A stretch of 64,000 nt of DNA from Candidatus Methylomirabilales bacterium (GTDB lineage: Bacteria; Methylomirabilota; Methylomirabilia; Methylomirabilales; CSP1-5). This document shows positions 22,491-35,932 of the stretch, piece after piece; the first letter of the stretch is position 1, and each line of letters begins with the position of its first letter. The stretch is taken from the NCBI GenBank assembly GCA_046758505.1, contig JBHIAH010000001.1, forward strand, positions 1 through 64,000. The letters are read 5' to 3'. The position numbers and the translations under genes are program-made. The notes under the pieces were generated by a model. That model searched no databases and was not told the DNA's origin. It saw only the letters and a list, made by a program, of their open reading frames with translations.

Positions 22491-24152
22491 ATGCACGGAT
22501 TCCGCTTCGACACCATCGACGCCGCCTCGCTGCCGCGCGTTCATCCCATTTTTCGGGACTATCTGAAGGGGACGCCTGCCCTCCGCGAATTCTACCGATG
22601 GGACCCTCGCGAGCCGCAGGAGAAGCTTTTACACTGCCTGGCCCGGCGGAGCTATCCCCGGGACCAACTTGCCACCATCCTCCGGGACCAGAATCGGGCC
22701 TGGGGGGCAAGTGAGTCCCTCCTTGAAAGCATCGCACGCCTCCGCGACCCCCGCGCGATAACGGTAATAACGGGCCAGCAGGTCGGATTATTCGGAGGTC
22801 CCCTCTACACCCTGTACAAGGCTCTGACGGCGGTGACGGTCGCCCGCCAAGTGGAGTCCCAGTGGCAGATTCCCTGCCTCCCTCTCTTCTCCATGGCCTC
22901 GGAGGACACCGATTTTGCCGAGATCGACCACCTTGCCATGCCCGACCACCAGGACCAGGCCGCACTCATCCGCTACGCCCCGGACCAAGGCTTCGGAACC
23001 GACCTTCCGGTGACCCACACGCTCACCCCAAAGATCAAGCAGGCCGTCGCCGCCCTGGAGCAGGCGGCCGGGCCAGGCCGGCTTCAGGAGAGGGTGCTGA
23101 CGCTGCTTCGCGACTGTTACCAGCCCGGGGCAACGCTGGTCTCGGCCTTTGGCCGGCTGTTGAGCGCTCTCCTCGGGGAGCGAGGTCTCATCGTGGTAGA
23201 TCCTTCCGATCCGCGACTCAAGGCCTTGGCCCGCCCCCTCTTCCTCCGGGAGGTCGGCACGGCTCCCACCTCGGCGGGGCAGGTTCAGAGCGCCTGGGAC
23301 AAGCTCCGGGGACTCGGATACCCCCCTCGGGTCCGTCTCCGGGGGGAAGGTCCGAACCTTTTCTACGTCCACGAGGGGCGGTGGCCCCTCAAAAAAGCCG
23401 GCGACCGCGGGCAGCTTGTTGCCGGCGCAAAGCGATGGCGAGACGGGCAAGAACTCCAGCATCTCGTGGAGGAGACACCGGAGCGCTTCAGCCCCAATGT
23501 GGTACTCCGCCCCCTGGTGCACAGCTTCCTCTTCCCGACGCTCGTCCAGGTGGGCGGGCCTCACGAGATTGCCTACTTCGCCCAGCTCCGAGGGGTCTTT
23601 GACCACTTCGATATTCCGATGCCCTTCCTCCTCCCGCGGGCGAGCCTCACCATCGTGGAGGGACGGATCGAGCGACTCCTCAAGAAGCACGATCTGACCT
23701 TCCTGGCCCTCCAGGAAGATCCCGAACGGGTCGTGACCCAGGTTCTTCACCGCTCTCTCCCCAGGAGCTTCGTGGGGAAACAACAGCGGATCCGGCGGAC
23801 GATCCTCAAGAATTTCGCGGAACTCAAAATGCTGGTCTCGTCCCTCGATTCCACCCTGACCCCCCGCGTGGGCGGCGTCGAGGGGGTGGTGAAGAAACAG
23901 ATGGACGAGATGGAGCGACTCCTCCTTCGGTCCTTCAAGCGGCGCAACCAGGAAGTCCGTACCCAGGTGCTCCGGGTCCTGGCCCACCTCATGCCCGGGG
24001 GAGAACTCCAGGAGCGCGCGTACGGCTTCATCCCGTACCTCTGCCATCACGGCCTCCCCCTCACAGACCTGATCGCCGCGGCCGTTGACGGGCCCGGATG
24101 GGAGCACCGGGTCCTCTATGTGGCCGCATCGCGCACGACCGATGACCAATGA
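22491..24152 (+). CDS. bshC: Bacillithiol biosynthesis cysteine-adding enzyme
   Basis: TGQQVGLFGGPLYTLYKA, SEDTDFAEIDH, FSPNVVLRPL, GGPHEIAYFAQ, LQER. Confidence 0.93.
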   Translation: MHGFRFDTIDAASLPRVHPIFRDYLKGTPALREFYRWDPREPQEKLLHCLARRSYPRDQLATILRDQNRAWGASESLLESIARLRDPRAITVITGQQVGLFGGPLYTLYKALTAVTVARQVESQWQIPCLPLFSMASEDTDFAEIDHLAMPDHQDQAALIRYAPDQGFGTDLPVTHTLTPKIKQAVAALEQAAGPGRLQERVLTLLRDCYQPGATLVSAFGRLLSALLGERGLIVVDPSDPRLKALARPLFLREVGTAPTSAGQVQSAWDKLRGLGYPPRVRLRGEGPNLFYVHEGRWPLKKAGDRGQLVAGAKRWRDGQELQHLVEETPERFSPNVVLRPLVHSFLFPTLVQVGGPHEIAYFAQLRGVFDHFDIPMPFLLPRASLTIVEGRIERLLKKHDLTFLALQEDPERVVTQVLHRSLPRSFVGKQQRIRRTILKNFAELKMLVSSLDSTLTPRVGGVEGVVKKQMDEMERLLLRSFKRRNQEVRTQVLRVLAHLMPGGELQERAYGFIPYLCHHGLPLTDLIAAAVDGPGWEHRVLYVAASRTTDDQ

Positions 24153-24411
24153 CCGATGACCGAAGTGGCTAAGGGCGAGGAGGGGGTTCCTTCCGAGGCC
24201 GGCGACGTCTGGCTTGCGTCGGCCGGGGTCCCGCCGCCGGAGCGCAGCGCAGGTGGGGGTGGCCCGCATTGGCGAATGTCAACGCCTCGGCATGCGTAAC
24301 GCTGCCTCCGCGCATCACGCCCTCGGAGAATAATGGCGCCGCCGAGGAAGGTCCCTCCGAGCCATTAGTCGTCCGTCGAACATCGATCACCAGTCGCTGA
24401 TTGGACTTCCT

Positions 24412-25569
24412 ATGAGGATCGGTATCACCTGCTACCCCACGTACGGGGGAAGCGGCGCCATCGCCGCCGAGCTGGGGATCCAGCTCAGCCAACGGGGCCA
24501 CCAGGTCCACTTTGTCAGCTACGCCCTCCCCTTCCGCCTCCCGACGTTCCAGCAAGACATCTTCTTTCACCAGGTGGAGACGATGTCCTACCCCCTCTTC
24601 GAGCATGCCCCCTATACCATTACCTTGGCGGCCAAGATGGCGGATGTGGCGCAGGCAGAAGGGTTGGACCTGCTGCACGTCCACTATGCCATCCCGCATG
24701 CCGTCTCCGCCTTCCTGGCCCGAGAGGCGGTGGGGGGTCGACTGAAGGTCCTGACCACGCTCCACGGGACCGATATCACCCTCGTGGGGATCGATCCGTC
24801 CCTGCGCTCGATCACCCGGCTCGCCATCGACACGAGCGACCGGGTCACTGCCGTCTCGTCCTACCTGGAGCAGCGAACCCGCGAGACCCTCCAGCCCAGC
24901 CGCCCCATCCGGGTCATCCCGAACTTTGTAGACAGCTCCCGATTCCTTCCCGGACGGGAGGAACGGACCCGGAACCGTTTCGCCCACTCGGGCGAGCGAA
25001 TCCTCCTGCACCTGAGCAACTTCCGCCCCGTCAAGCGCGTCACCGACGTCATCCGGATATTTGCCAGGGTCCGCCAGGAGATTCCGGCGAAGCTTCTCAT
25101 GGTGGGGGACGGCGTGGAGCGCCCCACGGCCCAGCACCTGACCCGAGAGCTGAATATCGAGAAAGAGGTTGTCTTCCTGAGCCGTCAGGAAGACATCCCC
25201 GGACTCATGAAGGTCGCCGATCTCTTCCTGCTCCCGAGCGAACTGGAGTCTTTCGGGCTGGCGGCCCTCGAGGCCATGAGCTGCGGGGTCCCGGTCATCG
25301 CCAGTCGGGTGGGCGGTCTTCTCGAGCTGATCGAGGACGGGGTGAGCGGAATGTTGTATCACGTGGGAGACGTGGAGGGAATGGCCCAGGCAGCCCTCCG
25401 GGTGCTCACGGACGACGCCCACCACCATCGAGTGGCGCAGGCAGCCCGCCAACGGGTCCTCGACCACTTCGACGCCGCCCGCATCATCCCCGAGTACGAG
25501 GCCCTCTACCAAGAGGTTCTCGCGTGCGAGTCTCCCCCGCCCTTCCGACCAACGTCCGATGACCGATAA
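24412..25569 (+). CDS. bshA: N-acetyl-alpha-D-glucosaminyl L-malate synthase
   Basis: [53 protein letters not shown]. Confidence 0.95.
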
Positions 25570-28616: not shown

Positions 28617-29117
28617 TCAGAAATCGGCGGGGACCACCCTGCGGATGTACGGGGAAAGCCATCGGCTGAGATCGTTCAACTTCACGAGGTCAAACGTGGA
28701 GAAGTTCGGCCCGGCGTCTTTCGAGGAACGCCCCTTTCTGCTTACCTGCATCACCCCGAGGGCCTGTCCCCAGGGAATGAGAAGGGGAGCGGAGACCATC
28801 TTCTGGATCTCCAGCGGCCTATCTTCCTTGATCCGGATCCGCTCGTAGACATCCAGGTGTTTGATCCGCGGGAGGTCGTTGTCGATGCGCCCCCTCCCCG
28901 CCTGGAGGACTTTCCCGGCGATACTGGTGGCGCTCACCGGAAATGTGTTTATTTTCTCCGCGTACAGGATGAAGGGGTAAGCGAACCTCAGCATCAACCG
29001 ATGCTGTCGCAAGAGGAGAATCGCGACCTCATCCTCCTGTACCGAGAAGGCCCGCGCGACCGCCAATGCGAGGTTGTCCGTGAGCCGCTCGAAGAGATCC
29101 GGCGGCGCCACGCCCAT
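28617..29117 (-). CDS. Stand-alone GAF domain protein (start uncertain)
   Basis: SIAGKV, MVSAPLL...LGVMQVSRK...FSTFDL GAF pattern. Confidence 0.75.
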   Translation of the reverse strand: MGVAPPDLFERLTDNLALAVARAFSVQEDEVAILLLRQHRLMLRFAYPFILYAEKINTFPVSATSIAGKVLQAGRGRIDNDLPRIKHLDVYERIRIKEDRPLEIQKMVSAPLLIPWGQALGVMQVSRKGRSSKDAGPNFSTFDLVKLNDLSRWLSPYIRRVVPADF

Positions 29118-29467
29118 CTTTTGGAAGATCTCGAGCTCCCACCTGATTCTCAGGGGGACTTGGCCAGCCACGCGCCTGAGCAGGAGTCGCCGCTGGACCG
29201 TCCGCCCCCCGAGAGAGACCTTCCCCGCCCGTCGAGGATCCACGTCGCGCTTCACCTCCTCCTGGGGCTCCCTCGCAGGCAACAGTTATGCCAAATACAA
29301 CTGACCATGCAAAATCAAATGGTTAGAGTGCCTAAGAGACCCTGCGGCAGGCGAGGTTGCAGCAATTCCGGACACACAGGAGCTATACGAATCCCGCTTG
29401 GCCCCCCTCGACCATAAAGACACAGGGGAAAGCGGCAAGCGCGGCAGGGGGACCTGGTTCCTGCGAA

Positions 29468-30877
29468 TCAGAACGGAGCAACCTGCTCCGCGGTCGGCTC
29501 CGCTCAGCAATACCACGGTTCGGTGAGGTACGGGATCGTGACGCGGGGGGGGGCCTCGGCCGTGGGGGGTAGGGGGCGGACGGACCGCTGGGACGCCCGC
29601 TCGGCGAGCAACCAGACCTGCGAAAAGATTTCGCGCCGGCCATCCCCGCGCGCCGCGGCCGCCTCGACGAGCGCCTGAATGTCCGCCTGCAGCTGATCGA
29701 CCCGGGGAACACAGTGCCGCCAGGGGTAGACGAGGGCACCCTCGTCAAACGGCCCCACCATCCGCCGAACCTCGGGGAGCTCCAAGAGCTTTGAACCGGC
29801 AGGGATCAACAGCCGCATCGCGAGCTGAATGGGGGCGACATGGTCGATGAGATCGAGCGCTGCCAAAATCGAGAGCAGCTCCTGGTAGCCCTCGATCGAG
29901 ATCCACGGCGTGAATGCCACGAAGGTCGGGTTCAGGATCAGTCCGGCCTCGCGACAGAGGCGGACGACCTGAATAAAATCCTCCCGGGTATGACCCTTGT
30001 CCAGCAGGGCAAGCGTGCGCTCATCGACGGATTCCACCGCACTGGTGACAAACAGGCACCCGGTCTCTTTGAGTGTTCTCAGGTGCTCCGCGTACTTCAG
30101 GAGGTGCTCAATTTTTGTGGTTACGTCATAGGTGAGGTGCGGGTGTTCCCCGTGCAGCCCCCGGACCAGGGCCAGGGAATGCCCAATCCCGTTGAAAAAG
30201 TCGGGGTCACCGAAGGTGATGTGCTCCGCGCCAGCCGCCACCTGGTGCCTGATATCTTCCAGGACCACATCCCGCTGCACGATCCGGAATTGCCCCTGAT
30301 AGACCGGAACGACCGGGCAGTGGCGACACCAGTGCTTGCAGCCCCGGCTTGCTTCTGTATAGCCCACGGTGCGAGACTGCCCATTCCCGAGTTCGAGCCG
30401 CGCATACTTCGACAGGGCCGCCAGCCCCGTCCGGTCCGGGACCAGAAACCGTTGCCTGGCCAACGAGACGGGGGGCTCAACCTGAGAGACTCTCCTCTCC
30501 GTCGCCGGCGCAGCACCGAGCCGCGCCACCAGACTCACCAGTCCTGCTTCGAACTCCCCCCCGAGGATAGAATCCGCACCCAGCTTTCGCAGGAAGGCCT
30601 CATTCATCGAGGCGTAGAGGCCGTAAAAGCAGAGATGAGCGTACGGATTGAGTCCCTGAACCCGCTCGACGACCCGTGTCGCGATGCGCGTCGCCGTGTG
30701 CATCGGCAGATAGAACGCCACGACGTCAGCGGCACGGATCGCCTCCTCGTTCAGGTGCTCCACGGCCAGGTCGAGACACGTCACCCGGGCACCGGCCCGC
30801 CGGAGCCAGGCGGCGGGTGAGGCAAGCCCAAAGGGCTGCCGACCCAATTCGTACGTGGAGATCAGCACGACGTGCAT
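29468..30877 (-). CDS. CUAEP-tail radical SAM selenoprotein (UGA at 29504-29506 read as Sec)
   Basis: SRGCKHWCRHC CxxxCxxC; the C-terminus continues EPWYC-U-AEPTAEQVAPF* past the UGA. Confidence 0.9.
29474..29490 (-). promoter_or_regulatory. Bacterial SECIS-like hairpin
   Basis: CGGAGCA-GGT-TGCTCCG perfect 7-bp stem 13 nt after the UGA, with a G-containing apical loop. Confidence 0.75.
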
Positions 30878-30980
30878 CGCAGACTCTTTACCACAAGCCA
30901 GGACACGCGGAAGAGAAGACACCTTCCCGGCGCCCCCTTGGGGGGCATCGGGGGCGCTTTTTCAGGAGCCTTCGCAGGCG

Positions 30981-31577
30981 TCAGGCGAGAGGAGAGTGCC
31001 CACCCTTGGATGGCTGATAGTACGGATTATTCCCGGCAGCGTGGTCGGTGGTGTCGATGATCTGGGTGATCCCGGGGACCGCCTCTTTGATCATCACCTC
31101 AATCCCCTGTTTCAGGGTCACGTCAGCCATCCCGCACCCCTGGCAACCCCCGCCGAGGGCGATGTAGGCGATGTCGTCCTTCACGTCGAGGAGCGCGACG
31201 TGTCCGCCGTGCGTTGCCACGCCCGGGTTGATCTGGGTATCGATCACCTCTTGCACGGCCTGCGCCTTCGGCTCGGTCCAGAGGGGGTTCGGGTTGTCAA
31301 TCTTGAAGCCGCTTTCGTACATCCCGTCGACGTAGTCGACCGTCGCACCCTTGAGGTTCGGCGCGCTCTCAGGATCGATGACCACCTGGAGACCCCCGAC
31401 GTCGGCCACGGTGTCTTCAGCCTCTTTCTCCTCTTCTCCCACAAACTGAAGCTCATACCGGAAACCGCCGGGACCGCGCCCCTTAATTGCCACGCGCAGC
31501 GCGAGACCCGTCTGCCCTTCGGCCTCCATGAGCGCCAGGATCTTCTTTGTCGCCGCCTCGGTGATTGTGAGCATCAT
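30981..31577 (-). CDS. nfuA: NfuA-type Fe-S carrier (degenerate A-type domain plus NifU-C)
   Basis: LTITEAA, GATVDY...GFKIDNPN, INPGVATHGG, GGGCQGCG. Confidence 0.9.
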   Translation of the reverse strand: MMLTITEAATKKILALMEAEGQTGLALRVAIKGRGPGGFRYELQFVGEEEKEAEDTVADVGGLQVVIDPESAPNLKGATVDYVDGMYESGFKIDNPNPLWTEPKAQAVQEVIDTQINPGVATHGGHVALLDVKDDIAYIALGGGCQGCGMADVTLKQGIEVMIKEAVPGITQIIDTTDHAAGNNPYYQPSKGGHSPLA

Positions 31578-31692
31578 CTCCTCCTTACAGGCTTACAGGG
31601 CTCAACACCCTGAGTGATTCCGTTCCACCTTTCATTCTCCGAGGATCAGACCCTCGGGTCAATGCCACCGCGTGAGGGCCTTCGCCCCATCA

Positions 31693-33015
31693 TCACTGTA
31701 ATCCTAGTCTCAACCGTTGGCGCCTGTCAACCCGAAGATTCGCGCCGGCAGCACCCTCCCCCTGCTCGGGCTTCTCGGCGGGAGGGGTAATGAGGAACGT
31801 GAGCCGACCATGCGCCTCACGCAGCGCCGCCTCGACGCCTTCCGCGGTCTCGCCGCGGGCGAAGATGAACCCCAGGTACCGCCCCCCTTCCGGCGGGGGG
31901 ACGACCTCGTGCCCCACGGGGATGGTCAGCCTGATCTCTTCAATCCCTGGCACACGGTGGGCCTCCTCCTGGCCCCGCACCTCGCGGAGGATCCCGGCCT
32001 GGGGGATCGGGATCATCATCACCCCCGCGGCCCGCCTCTCCCGCTCGAGCGACGCCACCCCGAGCCCCATCGTCTGCCGGAGGATCAGCTCCTCCAGGGA
32101 GATCCCCGCGCCGAAGCGCAGCGTGCGGGAACATAACCCCCCGATGGAGCGGGGGGCAATCTCGAGGATCCACGCCCCCTCGTCGTTCACCCGGAGCTCC
32201 GCATGGACCGGCCCGTGCTCGAGGCCGAGCGCCCTCACCGCCTCCGCCGTGCAGCCGACGATCGATTGCTGCACGGACGTCGGGAGGCGTGACGGCGTGA
32301 CGTAGATCGTCTCCTCAAAGAAGGGACCCTCCAGGGGATCCGGCTTATCGAAGAGGGCCAGCACCCGGAGCTCGCCCTTGACGAGGAGTCCCTCGAGCGC
32401 CACCTCCACCCCCGGAATGAAGGTTTCCACCAGGATCTGCCGCGCCAACGTACCCCCCTGGGCCGCCACCTCCGGCTGACGCAAGATACCAGCAACCCAC
32501 TGAAATCCCGCACCGAACTGCGCGGGCGTGTCGGCGCGGATGACCCCGCGGCTTGCGGAGAGAAACAGGGGCTTGATCACGCAGGGGAAACTCACCCGGC
32601 CGGCCACCTCGTCCGGATCCTCATCAATGGAGAAGCAGGCAAAGCGCGGTGAGGGGACGCCGGCCGCCGCCAGGACCTCCCGCATGCGGTGTTTGTTTCG
32701 GGCGGCGGCGACCGCATCCACAGGGTTGTGGGGCAGTCCCAGCGCTGCCGCCGCCATCGCCGCCAGGATCGCGCCGTCATCATCGGCGGCGACCACGGCC
32801 CGGATCGGGTACCGTTTGGCAAACTCAACGATGGCACACGTCGCCTCCTCCGGGGCCAGGAAGTCCAAAGTGAGACTTCCACCGGGATTCGCCGCCGACA
32901 AGACCTGCGGGCGGTCGGATCCGACCACCACGGGCACGGCAAGCCGCCGCGCCGCCTCGAGGAATGCCCTCGCCTTGTACGTCGTGGTCGTCATGAGAAG
33001 CAGAATACGCTGCAT
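31693..33015 (-). CDS. ATP-grasp domain protein
   Basis: RNKHRMR, FPCVIKP..LSASRGV, VETFIPGVE, HAELRV, LEIAPR. Confidence 0.9.
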   Translation of the reverse strand: MQRILLLMTTTTYKARAFLEAARRLAVPVVVGSDRPQVLSAANPGGSLTLDFLAPEEATCAIVEFAKRYPIRAVVAADDDGAILAAMAAAALGLPHNPVDAVAAARNKHRMREVLAAAGVPSPRFACFSIDEDPDEVAGRVSFPCVIKPLFLSASRGVIRADTPAQFGAGFQWVAGILRQPEVAAQGGTLARQILVETFIPGVEVALEGLLVKGELRVLALFDKPDPLEGPFFEETIYVTPSRLPTSVQQSIVGCTAEAVRALGLEHGPVHAELRVNDEGAWILEIAPRSIGGLCSRTLRFGAGISLEELILRQTMGLGVASLERERRAAGVMMIPIPQAGILREVRGQEEAHRVPGIEEIRLTIPVGHEVVPPPEGGRYLGFIFARGETAEGVEAALREAHGRLTFLITPPAEKPEQGEGAAGANLRVDRRQRLRLGLQ

Positions 33016-33117: not shown

Positions 33118-34512
33118 TCAGGCGTTCTTCACGGCGCTCGCCAGCTTGACCAGAGAGTCCCTGGCATCCCCAAAGAGCATCATGGTCTTCTCATGGTAGA
33201 AGAGTTCATTCTCGATCCCGGCGAACCCGGGATTCATGCTTCGCTTCAGGACGATCACGTGGCCGGCCTTATCCACATCGAGGATCGGCATCCCGTAGAT
33301 CGGACTGTTGGGGGAGTTGCGAGCGGCCGGATTCACCACGTCGTTCGCGCCGACGACCAAGACCACATCCGTCCGTTCAAATTCGGCGTTAATGTCGTCC
33401 ATATCGTAGAGCTGCGGATAGGGGACATTGGCCTCCGCCAACAGCACATTCATGTGTCCCGGCATCCTGCCGGCCACGGGGTGAATGGCGTACTTGACGG
33501 TCACGCCTCTCTTTTCGAGGAGGTCGGCGAGATCCCGCACCTGATGCTGGGCCTGGGCGACGGCCAATCCATACCCCGGAGCGACGATGACCGAGCGGGC
33601 GTAGGCGAGCAGCACCGCCGCGTCATCCGCCGACGTCTCGCGCACCCCCCGGGCCGCGAGGGCACCCCCGCCGTCGCCCGCCGCTGTGGCAACCTGAGCC
33701 CCGAACCCGCCGAATAGGACATTGGCGAAAGACCGGTTCATCGCCCGGCACATGATCTGGGTGAGGATGATGCCCGAGGCGCCGACCAGTGCCCCGCTGA
33801 TGATCAGGCCGTGGTTTGAGATCACAAACCCGGTCGTGGCGGCCGCCAATCCCGAGTAGGAGTTGAGGAGGCAGATGACGACCGGCATGTCGGCCCCACC
33901 GATCGGAATCACGACGAGCACACCCAGGGCCAGGGCGATCGCGTTCATCCCGATGAACACGCCGGCATGGCCGGGCGAGATCACCAGGTAGGTCCCCATG
34001 CCGAAGACGGACAGAAAGAGGACCAGGTTGAGCAGGTGCTGGAACCGAAAGAGCACCGGCCGCCCAGAGATGATCTCCTGGAGCTTCCCGGCGGCGATGA
34101 TGCTCCCGGAGAGCGTCACCCCCCCGATGAGCGTGCTCGCATAGATGCTGACGGCCGTGTCCATCGTGAGGAGGGACCCGGGCTGCATGAGCCGATGCCA
34201 CGCCGCCGCCGCCACGAGCTGCGAGGCCCCGCCGCCAAAGCCGTTCAAGATCCCCACCATTTGCGGCATGGCGGTCATCTTGACCGCGCGGGCCATCCAG
34301 AGGCCGAGGAGCGACCCGACCACGCCCCCGACGACGATCCACTGGAAGCTCAAGATCTGCCGGTCAAAGAGGGTCGCGACGATCGCGATGAGCATGCCGA
34401 TTGCGGAGAGGAAATTCCCCCCGCGCGCCGTCGCCGGCGAGGCGAGACGCTTGAGGCCGACGATGAACAGGACGACGGCAACAAGATAGGCGAGTTCGAT
34501 GAAAGCACTCAT
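33118..34512 (-). CDS. pntB: NAD(P) transhydrogenase beta subunit
   Basis: IGGADMPVVI, PGYGLAVAQAQH, HPVAGRMPGHMNVLLAEA. Confidence 0.97.
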   Translation of the reverse strand: MSAFIELAYLVAVVLFIVGLKRLASPATARGGNFLSAIGMLIAIVATLFDRQILSFQWIVVGGVVGSLLGLWMARAVKMTAMPQMVGILNGFGGGASQLVAAAAWHRLMQPGSLLTMDTAVSIYASTLIGGVTLSGSIIAAGKLQEIISGRPVLFRFQHLLNLVLFLSVFGMGTYLVISPGHAGVFIGMNAIALALGVLVVIPIGGADMPVVICLLNSYSGLAAATTGFVISNHGLIISGALVGASGIILTQIMCRAMNRSFANVLFGGFGAQVATAAGDGGGALAARGVRETSADDAAVLLAYARSVIVAPGYGLAVAQAQHQVRDLADLLEKRGVTVKYAIHPVAGRMPGHMNVLLAEANVPYPQLYDMDDINAEFERTDVVLVVGANDVVNPAARNSPNSPIYGMPILDVDKAGHVIVLKRSMNPGFAGIENELFYHEKTMMLFGDARDSLVKLASAVKNA

Positions 34513-34808
34513 TGCCGCTCGCCCTCCGGCTTCCGCTTGAACATCTGGAGCATCCGGTCAGTCACGACGTAGCCGCCGACCACGTTGATCATGGCGAACG
34601 CCACCGCAACGGTCCCGAAGACCGTGGCGAGCGTCGTCGCTCCCATCCCCGCCACGACCATCGAGCCGATGATCGTGATGCCGGAGACGGCGTTCGACCC
34701 AGACATGAGCGGCGTGTGCAGCGTGGCGGGGACCTTCGTAATGACCTCGAAGCCCACGAACATCGCGAGGACGAATATCACCAGGAGGATAACCAGGCCT
34801 TCGCTCAT
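34509..34808 (-). CDS. pntA: NAD(P) transhydrogenase alpha subunit, part 2
   Basis: LHTPLMSGSNAVSG, NVVGGYVVTDRML. Confidence 0.95.
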   Translation of the reverse strand: MSEGLVILLVIFVLAMFVGFEVITKVPATLHTPLMSGSNAVSGITIIGSMVVAGMGATTLATVFGTVAVAFAMINVVGGYVVTDRMLQMFKRKPEGERQ

Positions 34809-35932
34809 GGGTGTCTGACCCTCCCCTCGTGCGTGATACAGGTGTCATTCGTGATCGGGTCGTCGAAATCGAGTTGGAGCTTCGTGTCGCGCACCAGGTG
34901 GAGCAGGAAGCTCACGATATTCTTCGAATACATCTGACTGGCGTGCACGGGCATCGAGCTCGGGACATTAAGCGGCCCGTGGATGGTCACGCCGTGTGGG
35001 GTGGCCGTGCGGCCGGGCTCGGTCAGTTCGCAGTTGCCCCCCATCTCTGCCGCCAGGTCCACAATCACCGAACCCGCCTTCATATCCCGGACCATCTCCC
35101 GGGTGATGAGGATCGGGGCAGGTTTTCCCGGAATCAGCGCCGTGGTGATGACGATATCCGCCCCCTTCACATGCTGGTGAAGCAGCGCCTTCTCCCGGTC
35201 CTGCGACTCCCGGGAAAGCGCTCGTGCGTAACCGCCAGCATCTTCGGCCTCCTCGCCCGCAACATCCAGCTCAAGAAAGGTTGCCCCCAGGCTTTCCACT
35301 TGCTCCTTCACGGCAGGTCGGACGTCGTACGCCTGGACCATCGCCCCCAGCCGGCGCGTAGTGGCGATCGCCTGCAGGCCGGCCACACCCGCCCCCAGAA
35401 CGAGGACCTTGGCCGGTGGCACCGTGCCGGCGGCCGTGACCAGCATCGGGAAAAATTTCCCCAGCGAGCTGGCGGCGATCAGGGCGGCCTTGTACCCCGC
35501 GACCGTACCCTGCGATGACAGGACATCCATCTTCTGGGCCCGGGCGATGCGGGGAATGCAGTCCATGCTAAAGCTCGTGATCTTCCGCTCGGCCAACCGC
35601 TGTACCAGGTCGGGGTGGCTGGAAGGCTGGAGCATCGTAATCAGCGCCGCGCCTTCCTGCATCAGCTCCACCTCGTGCCGGCCCAGGGTCCCGTTCGCCA
35701 CGGGGGGTTGCACCTTGAGGACCACGTTCGCCTGACCCAGGAGGGCGCGCGCATCGGCAACGAGCGTGGCTCCGGCCTCTGCATAGCCGCGATCCGAAAA
35801 AGAGGCACTCGCGCCGGCCCCCGCCTCAACCAAGACCTCGGTCCCTTCTTTCACCAGCGGGCCCACGCCGTCGGGAACCAGGGCCACCCGGCTCTCGTTC
35901 GGCACGATTTCTTTGGGGACGCCGACCCTCAT
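34805..35932 (-). CDS. pntA: NAD(P) transhydrogenase alpha subunit, part 1
   Basis: GVPKE...ESRVAL, PRIARAQKMDVLSS, GAGVAGLQAI. Confidence 0.95.
   Translation of the reverse strand: MRVGVPKEIVPNESRVALVPDGVGPLVKEGTEVLVEAGAGASASFSDRGYAEAGATLVADARALLGQANVVLKVQPPVANGTLGRHEVELMQEGAALITMLQPSSHPDLVQRLAERKITSFSMDCIPRIARAQKMDVLSSQGTVAGYKAALIAASSLGKFFPMLVTAAGTVPPAKVLVLGAGVAGLQAIATTRRLGAMVQAYDVRPAVKEQVESLGATFLELDVAGEEAEDAGGYARALSRESQDREKALLHQHVKGADIVITTALIPGKPAPILITREMVRDMKAGSVIVDLAAEMGGNCELTEPGRTATPHGVTIHGPLNVPSSMPVHASQMYSKNIVSFLLHLVRDTKLQLDFDDPITNDTCITHEGRVRHP

What the first reader, a model, noticed from the sequence alone, without database searches (positions are those of the whole stretch)
29468..33015. 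Uncharacterised ATP-grasp / NfuA / seleno-radical-SAM cluster
Seen: three co-oriented genes with gaps of about 100-115 nt, directly downstream of pntAAB. Known: NfuA delivers 4Fe-4S clusters to radical SAM enzymes, and ATP-grasp enzymes form amide bonds. From memory, the related radical SAM ArsL uses a Cys-rich tail in arsinothricin biosynthesis. Inference: a compact pathway in which the Cys-Sec tail holds a metalloid or redox-active substrate and the ligase couples the product to an amino acid, possibly supplied with NADPH by the transhydrogenase. This is my best candidate for an undescribed biosynthetic system.
Basis: partly seen in the sequence, partly recalled or inferred. Interest (0 to 1): 0.85.

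Follow-up and report, generated by a model that had tools for sequence, protein, structure and literature searches.

The report
Selenium-linked radical SAM–ligase–NfuA module
Three neighbouring genes form a widespread, unstudied bacterial module: a radical enzyme with a predicted selenocysteine tail, related to the arsenic-carbon bond-maker ArsL; an amino-acid ligase whose invariant cysteine is predicted to be selenocysteine in one lineage; and an iron-sulfur helper, which together likely build an unknown sulfur-, selenium- or arsenic-containing dipeptide.

Summary
The radical SAM gene belongs to the catalogued but uncharacterised CUAEP family (NF040546). Its TGA is very likely selenocysteine (SECIS hairpin; SelA, SelB, SelD and tRNA-Sec present). 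ArsL is its closest characterised relative (32–35% identity).

The ligase is a true partner: 78 of 121 loci, and 34 of 36 Chloroflexota and 18 of 19 Acidobacteriota genomes that carry the radical SAM gene. The third gene is NfuA or YggX, never both in one locus. pntAB is a local neighbour only (5 of 121). No arsenic operon accompanies the module.

This scan noted the module before on other DNA. New here: the ligase's invariant active-site Cys is an in-frame TGA with its own hairpin in all 9 radical-SAM-adjacent Tectomicrobia copies, so it is a predicted selenoprotein ATP-grasp enzyme; and ligase plus NfuA persist in genomes where the radical SAM gene was not found.

Most likely mechanism (inferred): aminocarboxypropyl transfer from SAM to a heteroatom held on the Cys-Sec arm, then ligation into a dipeptide serving Fe-S upkeep. 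Sulfur or selenium is slightly favoured over arsenic. No biochemistry exists.

The parts
29468..30877 (-). CUAEP-tail radical SAM selenoprotein (NF040546), 469 aa: B12-binding-like N-domain, radical SAM core, C-terminal arm ending W-Y-C-U-A-E-P
   Evidence: AlphaFold model pLDDT 93, fold like B12-type radical SAM enzymes
30317..30340 (-). CX3CX2C motif (C180, C184, C187) for the SAM-binding [4Fe-4S] cluster
   Evidence: invariant in 45 aligned sequences
29504..29506 (-). in-frame TGA, predicted Sec458, next to Cys457
   Evidence: 99 TGA and 21 Cys codons in 120 homologous tails; Sec machinery in the genome
29474..29491 (-). candidate SECIS hairpin (+16..+33 from the TGA)
   Evidence: fold z -2.4; pairing kept in TGA loci and relaxed in Cys loci
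30981..31577 (-). NfuA-like Fe-S carrier (degenerate A-type domain plus NifU-C domain with CXXC); the only NifU-domain gene found in the genome
31693..33015 (-). ATP-grasp ligase of L-amino-acid-ligase architecture (ATPgrasp_N, ATP-grasp_4, LAL_C2), an unnamed orthologous family
32131..32133 (-). Cys295 of the ligase (R-x-I-G-G-L-C loop): invariant; TGT here, in-frame TGA (predicted Sec) in Tectomicrobia
31701..31730 (-). sigma70-like promoter match (10 of 12) upstream of nfuA; consensus match only
33118..35932 (-). pntAAB transhydrogenase: adjacent, but not a conserved part of the module

Best explanation
The radical SAM gene, the ligase gene and an Fe-S helper gene (NfuA here, YggX elsewhere) form a conserved module, in which the radical SAM enzyme likely cleaves SAM as ArsL does and would transfer the aminocarboxypropyl (ACP) group to a sulfur or selenium atom held on its Cys-Sec arm, and the ligase would then join the resulting homocysteine-type amino acid to a second amino acid, giving a thiol or selenol dipeptide predicted to serve iron-sulfur cluster upkeep. 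Shown by sequence and genomes: the module, the helper swap, and the codon and hairpin evidence for Sec in the rSAM tail and at the ligase's active-site Cys. Inferred: ACP chemistry (about 65%); the ligase Cys/Sec gripping the heteroatom; the identity of the heteroatom; the physiological role. The general scheme, ACP-X followed by ligation whatever X is, I put at about 0.55; the S/Se version is the confidence given here.
For: ArsL is the only close characterised relative. It makes MTA and an ACP species, binds its substrate on a C-terminal Cys tail, and forms a C-S product with dithionite (10.1101/2024.02.01.577332). The rSAM and ligase co-occur: Chloroflexota both 34, rSAM only 2, ligase only 9, neither 106; Acidobacteriota 18/1/3/99; own phylum 139/10/16/36. 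Of 78 rSAM loci with the ligase, 74 also have NfuA or YggX, and none of 121 has both. Other neighbours are Fe-S genes: aconitase 23, CDGSH 11, LipA 4 of 121 within 3 kb, a SUF operon in 6. The ligase Cys is kept in 140 of 141 motif-bearing representatives (150 examined) and is TGA in 9 of 24 Tectomicrobia copies. It lies two residues after the position that aligns with BacD Trp332, a substrate-pocket residue. The closest solved ligase, BL00235, makes Met-Gly and Met-Met, and Met is an ACP-sulfur amino acid. Small thiols overlap in function with Nfu (PMC8593673). A ligase surviving without the rSAM fits a substrate that general metabolism can also supply.
Against: No biochemistry exists for either enzyme. 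No residue is known that marks ACP cleavage, so I could not test it, and no ArsL structure was found. The genome already has bacillithiol genes (bshA, bshC) and SAH hydrolase, so a second thiol or a SAM-to-homocysteine route is not obviously needed. No SelD or cysteine desulfurase is a regular neighbour (SufS-like only in the 6 SUF loci). The NfuA/YggX split is one branch of the ligase tree (1 change, support 94/95), so it is probably a single event. YggX is not obligatory: in Acidobacteriota only 6 of 18 strong YggX hits are in rSAM genomes and 5 of 19 rSAM genomes have none. 32 of 121 rSAM loci have neither ligase nor helper within 3 kb. One ligase family member is fused to an ArsM-like domain.
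Confidence: 0.3

Rival explanations
1. Arsenic version. The Cys-Sec arm binds As(III) or methylarsenite, ACP transfer gives hydroxyarsinothricin or arsinothricin, the trivalent product passes to the ligase Cys/Sec and is capped as a dipeptide, protecting Fe-S and dithiol enzymes from arsenite.
For: Sister family to ArsL. A two-Cys ArsL variant is the best methylarsenic converter (review PMC13598754, passage). Bacillota ArsL clusters also carry a LAL-type ligase. P0336 is a family ligase (45% identity) fused to an ArsM-like domain (228 bits, cut-off 263). The genome has two ArsM-like genes, one with an in-frame TGA.
Against: No arsC, arsR, arsN, arsQ or arsH hit in 141 loci; only ArsM-like hits in 2 and a sub-cut-off ArsB-like hit in 4. 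ArsM is not enriched: 16 of 36 rSAM genomes against 77 of 115 others. No ArsN or ArsQ hit in this genome. The tail lacks ArsL's third Cys. The Bacillota ligases are only 23-27% identical and fall outside the family. The gene is present in 149 of 201 genomes of the phylum, mostly single copy.
Confidence: 0.25
2. The ligase is not a dipeptide synthetase. It uses its Cys/Sec and ATP (acyl-thioester or metal-binding chemistry) to modify, load or repair an Fe-S carrier or client protein, and the rSAM is an auxiliary step.
For: The ligase sits beside nfuA in 10 of 10 loci from 9 Chloroflexota genomes where the rSAM was not found, and in 8 of 15 Cys-type Tectomicrobia copies. It sits beside yggX away from the rSAM in G291, G288 and G297. 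Cys/Sec exchange usually marks a catalytic residue (own knowledge).
Against: Full LAL domain set and best match to dipeptide ligases. Nearly every rSAM genome has the ligase, which fits a substrate chain.
Confidence: 0.2
3. The rSAM uses canonical 5'-deoxyadenosyl or B12-dependent chemistry on an unknown carbon substrate, and the Cys-Sec tail is a redox arm like that of thioredoxin reductase.
For: B12-binding-like domain (31.2 bits, cut-off 32.1). Fold neighbours are AprD4, TsrM and OxsB. The arm is about 45 aa longer than ArsL's.
Against: Much closer to ArsL than to any canonical family (293 against 50 bits or fewer), including the core and the N-domain.
Confidence: 0.15
4. The genes are merely co-regulated Fe-S stress genes, or part of a pnt operon, with no shared pathway.
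For: Varied order and orientation; 32 of 121 loci lack partners; a promoter-like site lies upstream of nfuA.
Against: Tight genome-level co-occurrence in three phyla. The Sec form of the ligase occurs only beside the rSAM (9 of 9). pntB in 5 of 121 loci.
Confidence: 0.1

Closest known systems
NCBIfam NF040546, CUAEP/CCAEP-tail radical SAM (seleno)protein
   Same: Member: 637.7 bits (cut-off 500), CU tail. Called uncharacterised in 10.1101/2022.07.06.499078 (passage).
   Different: No partner genes or function are given in the passages read.
ArsL (NF040542, RCCLKC tail), arsinothricin C-As bond-forming radical SAM enzyme
   Same: 32-35% identity over about 400 aa, same domain order, vicinal Cys tail.
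   Different: 293 bits against a cut-off of 450. CU dyad instead of CCxxC, longer arm, no ars operon, chromosomal single-copy spread.
L-amino acid ligases (BL00235 3VOT, BacD, DdaF)
   Same: Three-domain architecture and the R-x-x-G loop; 3VOT E 8e-68 with the family profile.
   Different: All curated models score far below cut-off. Invariant Cys/Sec in the loop, and Gly at the position of BacD Trp332.
NfuA (TIGR03341) and YggX (NF003817, PF04362)
   Same: NfuA domain order and CXXC. YggX partners pass the cut-off (129 bits against 74).
   Different: This NfuA scores 124.7 against 269. Most Rokubacteria loci carry only the NifU-C domain (about 93 aa). The two helpers are alternatives within one module.
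Bacillota RCCLKC clusters with an ATP-grasp gene (Priestia, Alicyclobacillus plasmids)
   Same: ArsL-type enzyme beside a LAL-type ligase.
   Different: Arsenic islands with arsN (and arsM in one); ligase not orthologous (23-27% identity).

Membership tests
NF040546 rSAM_CUAEP | HMM score above 500 bits | tested here: met
   637.7 bits
NF040546 rSAM_CUAEP | C-terminal CUAEP/CCAEP motif | tested here: met
Bacterial selenoprotein (rSAM) | In-frame UGA aligned with Cys in homologues, SECIS hairpin, Sec machinery | tested here: met
   incorporation itself not measured
Bacterial selenoprotein (Tectomicrobia ligase) | In-frame UGA at a conserved Cys, open conserved frame beyond it, hairpin, SelA | tested here: met
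   9 copies, 121-125 aa open after the TGA, 5-bp hairpin absent from same-peptide Cys paralogues; SelA over cut-off in 4 of 5 genomes. The window's own ligase has Cys (TGT).
ArsL (NF040542) | HMM score above 450 bits | tested here: not met
   293.3 bits
ArsL (NF040542) | RCCLKC three-Cys tail | tested here: not met
   C-U only
ArsL (NF040542) | Location in an ars cluster with arsM, arsQ or arsN | tested here: not met
   141 loci; own genome
ArsL (NF040542) | SAM cleavage to MTA and ACP | not testable with these tools
   needs an enzyme assay
L-amino acid ligase type ATP-grasp | ATPgrasp_N + ATP-grasp_4 + LAL_C2 domains | tested here: met
   all three over Pfam cut-off
L-amino acid ligase type ATP-grasp | ATP-dependent dipeptide synthesis from free amino acids | not testable with these tools
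   needs an assay
NfuA | Degenerate A-type domain plus NifU-C domain with CXXC | tested here: met
NfuA | Equivalog HMM cut-off (TIGR03341, 269 bits) | tested here: not met
   124.7 bits
B12-dependent radical SAM methylase | B12-binding domain above cut-off and cobalamin use | tested here: inconclusive
   31.2 against 32.1 bits; use not testable

The most novel reading that the evidence does not exclude
The module makes an undescribed low-molecular-weight thiol or selenol peptide for Fe-S homeostasis in many uncultured soil, subsurface and marine bacteria. It does so by ArsL-type ACP transfer on a Cys-Sec arm and hand-over to an ATP-grasp ligase with a catalytic Cys/Sec, a selenoprotein class I found in no searched paper. 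YggX and NfuA do the same job in it.
Probability: 0.3. Interest if true: 0.9.

Novelty: new variant of a known kind. Interest (0 to 1): 0.74.

Why it matters
ArsL is described as the only CX3CX2C radical SAM enzyme known to make the ACP radical. This sister family is a near-core gene in its phylum (149 of 201 genomes), so it may be the ancestral, non-arsenic form of that chemistry (inference). A Cys/Sec site in an ATP-grasp ligase points to thiol chemistry that this fold is not known for (own knowledge; no paper) and gives a precise residue to mutate. The NfuA/YggX exchange gives a defined system in which to test what YggX does. Cys-only versions of both enzymes exist (for example L131, L132), so the whole system can be assayed without selenocysteine expression.

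Tried and rejected
Transhydrogenase link: rejected.
rSAM-ligase fusion proteins (P0243, P0244, P0247, P0248): each has lost the Cys tail, and the junctions read like frameshifted tails, so I treat them as assembly artefacts and do not use them.
Long N-terminal extensions on four ligase representatives match the reading antisense to nfuA and are not fusions.
Alternative homocysteine synthase: this genome has no PF01053 or PF01837 match, but the mostly rSAM-negative sister family also has none (0 of 18) and Rokubacteria have both kinds (109 of 126), so there is no complementarity.
ArsM co-occurrence: none.
Ligase-NfuA complex prediction: no verdict, score 0.07; not evidence either way.
Sequencing runs: no RNA holder was listed.
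The ligase structure job had not finished when last polled, so no model of Cys295 was seen.
A synonymous-recoding folding test of the rSAM SECIS was weak (mean z -0.74 for TGA, -0.26 for Cys); the fixed-pair count is the stronger test.
ESM Atlas returned only unnamed ATP-grasp clusters.
Fisher P values overstate the case because kin are not independent, so only counts are quoted.
Full report
Observation. The minus strand carries an ATP-grasp gene (33015-31693), an nfuA-like gene (31577-30981) and a radical SAM gene (30877-29468), with gaps of 115 and 103 nt, 102 nt after pntB. The nearest relatives are NC10/Methylomirabilales at 78-83% identity. The genome is 2.99 Mb and 96.8% complete.

The radical SAM protein. 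It passes NF040546 (637.7 bits, cut-off 500). ArsL's family scores 293 (cut-off 450) and all others 50 or less. It is 32-35% identical to three ArsL/RCCLKC proteins over about 400 residues, but ends in a Cys-Sec pair on an arm about 45 residues longer. Of 120 related tails, 99 have TGA and 21 a Cys codon. A hairpin at +16..+33 keeps 5.0 of 6 pairs in 58 distinct TGA sequences and 3.35 in 20 Cys sequences. SelA, SelB, SelD and tRNA-Sec are present. The AlphaFold model (pLDDT 93) resembles B12-type radical SAM folds, and no ArsL structure was among the matches.

Neighbourhood. I examined 121 loci: the window, the 80 best of 295 GTDB relatives, 20 Chloroflexota and 20 from the own phylum. They are not independent; L004 and L166 look like one genome. 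Within 3 kb of the rSAM, the ligase occurs in 78, NfuA or a NifU-C protein in 44, YggX in 41, aconitase in 23, a CDGSH protein in 11, DUF169 in 8 and pntB in 5. The combinations were ligase+NfuA 38, ligase+YggX 36, ligase alone 4, NfuA alone 6, YggX alone 5, none 32, both helpers 0. Among the 89 loci with full flanks, 18 had none. Order and orientation vary. In 80 metagenome loci found with a YggX-type ligase, both helpers were again never together and pntB was absent.

Genomes. The rSAM was found in 149 of 201 genomes of the own phylum, 36 of 151 Chloroflexota and 19 of 121 Acidobacteriota; the ligase in 155, 43 and 21; both in 139, 34 and 18. One of the three ligase-only Acidobacteriota genomes is G378, flagged unpublished; the counts 21 and 3 rest on it. 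All 22 strong YggX hits in Chloroflexota are in rSAM genomes (the 7 weak hits are not), but only 6 of 18 in Acidobacteriota. On a 38-row ligase tree, NfuA-linked and YggX-linked ligases are two sides of one branch (support 94/95; Tectomicrobia TGA copies and most loci were left out), so the swap probably happened once. In 9 Chloroflexota genomes the rSAM was not found by two searches, and all 10 ligase copies there lie beside nfuA.

The ligase. It has the full L-amino-acid-ligase domain set. The best solved relative is BL00235, which makes Met-Gly and Met-Met (PMC6920838, passages). Cys295 in the R-x-I-G-G-L-C loop is invariant in 27 aligned sequences and present in 140 of 141 motif-bearing representatives of 150. 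Gly293 aligns with the BacD position I read as Trp332, a pocket residue (the two-residue numbering offset and the reading of 3WO1 as the W332A variant are my inference). In Tectomicrobia, 16 of 17 genomes hold 24 copies. Nine have TGA at this Cys; all nine are beside the rSAM, stay open for 121-125 residues and share a 5-pair hairpin at about +22..+37. Fifteen have Cys; none has the rSAM within 1.5 kb and 8 lie beside nfuA. Four Cys copies encode the same downstream peptide with codons that break the hairpin. Two metagenome contigs show the same TGA and hairpin, and 134 distinct Cys sequences average 2.5 of 5 pairs, with 6 reaching 5. SelA passes cut-off in 4 of 5 of these genomes. The ligase there is therefore a predicted selenoprotein, which marks this residue as functional.

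Arsenic or not. For: ArsL kinship; an ArsL variant with two vicinal Cys works best on methylarsenic (PMC13598754, passages); Bacillota ArsL clusters carry a ligase of the same architecture; one family ligase is fused to an ArsM-like domain; this genome has two ArsM-like genes. Against: no ars operon in 141 loci; ArsM in 16 of 36 rSAM genomes against 77 of 115 others; no ArsN or ArsQ hit here; the Bacillota ligases are not orthologues; neighbours are Fe-S genes.

Mechanism (inferred). The rSAM likely forms an ACP-iron species as proposed for ArsL (10.64898/2026.04.29.721666, first fifth and passages). A heteroatom held on the Cys-Sec arm would attack it. The ACP-X amino acid would be gripped through X by the ligase Cys/Sec, activated with ATP and joined to a second amino acid. 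NfuA or YggX would maintain the cluster, or be the beneficiary of the product. I give 0.30 to X = S or Se, 0.25 to arsenic, 0.20 to a ligase acting on Fe-S proteins, 0.15 to canonical radical chemistry and 0.10 to no shared pathway.

Literature seen. 10.1101/2022.07.06.499078 (passages) names the family as uncharacterised. 10.1101/2024.02.01.577332 was read whole. PMC8552651, PMC8593673 and PMC13149037 were read as passages. Searches: CUAEP + radical SAM gave 1 paper; NF040546, CCAEP or rSAM_CUAEP gave 10 listings, of which only that one looked relevant; arsinothricin + ATP-grasp gave 1 unrelated paper; four of radical SAM, selenoprotein, ATP-grasp, Rokubacteria, Acidobacteria gave 0; ATP-grasp + selenoprotein + selenocysteine + UGA gave 0; DUF169 + iron-sulfur gave 0. 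Most subscription papers are not covered, including the journal versions of the ArsL studies, and I read no supplements. A similarity network or selenoprotein table there could already mention this family or the ligase.

Earlier scan notes. Agents reported the rSAM-ligase pair with YggX or Nfu on other DNA. I looked after reaching the same reading and tested it here. A word search for the Sec ligase found nothing.

Verdict. A real, conserved, uncharacterised module and a new variant of known enzyme kinds. The transhydrogenase is incidental. The predicted Sec ligase and the helper exchange raise it above a plain family assignment. Interest 0.74.

Noticed in passing
G000:C10 (L173:1480-2202): ArsM-like methyltransferase with an in-frame TGA at a Cys-like site, best matching selenoprotein ArsM models below cut-off; it lies near a divergent MerR-type regulator and a Cys-rich small protein (my reading of the ORFs).
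   Followed up: partly
whole genome G000 and families f1, f2: No Cys/Met PLP-enzyme match in f1 (0 of 14) or f2 (0 of 18), and neither PF01053 nor PF01837 in G000, although a MetX-like gene lies right after selD (C6:8975-10045). How these bacteria make homocysteine is unexplained.
   Followed up: partly
L093 and L095: Bacillota ArsL-type clusters with a carboxymuconolactone-decarboxylase-family gene, a LAL-type ligase, a GTP-binding protein and arsN1: candidate arsinothricin-peptide pathways; no paper found.
   Followed up: partly
L009, L010, L144, L147, L149, L150, L162, L168, L191; 16 of 80 loci: DUF169 (COG2043) recurs as a fourth neighbour in several lineages, sometimes between the rSAM and the ligase.
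   Followed up: partly
P0336, P0315: A divergent ligase subclade fused to an ArsM-like methyltransferase or to a sulfotransferase domain; one protein each, no DNA context seen.
   Followed up: partly
L004, L005, L166 downstream of the rSAM: A co-oriented run of TusA-like, DsrE-like, OsmC-like and methionine-synthase-like genes (TusA and DsrE labels recalled from motifs; the other two are sub-cut-off hits). In these loci pntB is one 598-aa ORF, apparently fused with the small pntA part.
   Followed up: no
L033, L037, L038, L063, L067, L075: In these six loci (five named Latescibacterota, Gemmatimonadota or unnamed MAGs of like layout) nfuA and the rSAM close a SUF operon, with the ligase convergent.
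   Followed up: partly
window 22491-25569 (+): bshC and bshA bacillithiol genes, above cut-off; close to the module only in NC10 kin.
   Followed up: no
window 28617-29282 (-): 221-aa ORF downstream of the rSAM with no Pfam or NCBIfam match and not seen in the other loci.
   Followed up: no
L131-L141: A formyltransferase (Fmt-like, below cut-off) lies beside yggX in 11 Chloroflexota loci, divergent in 10.
   Followed up: no
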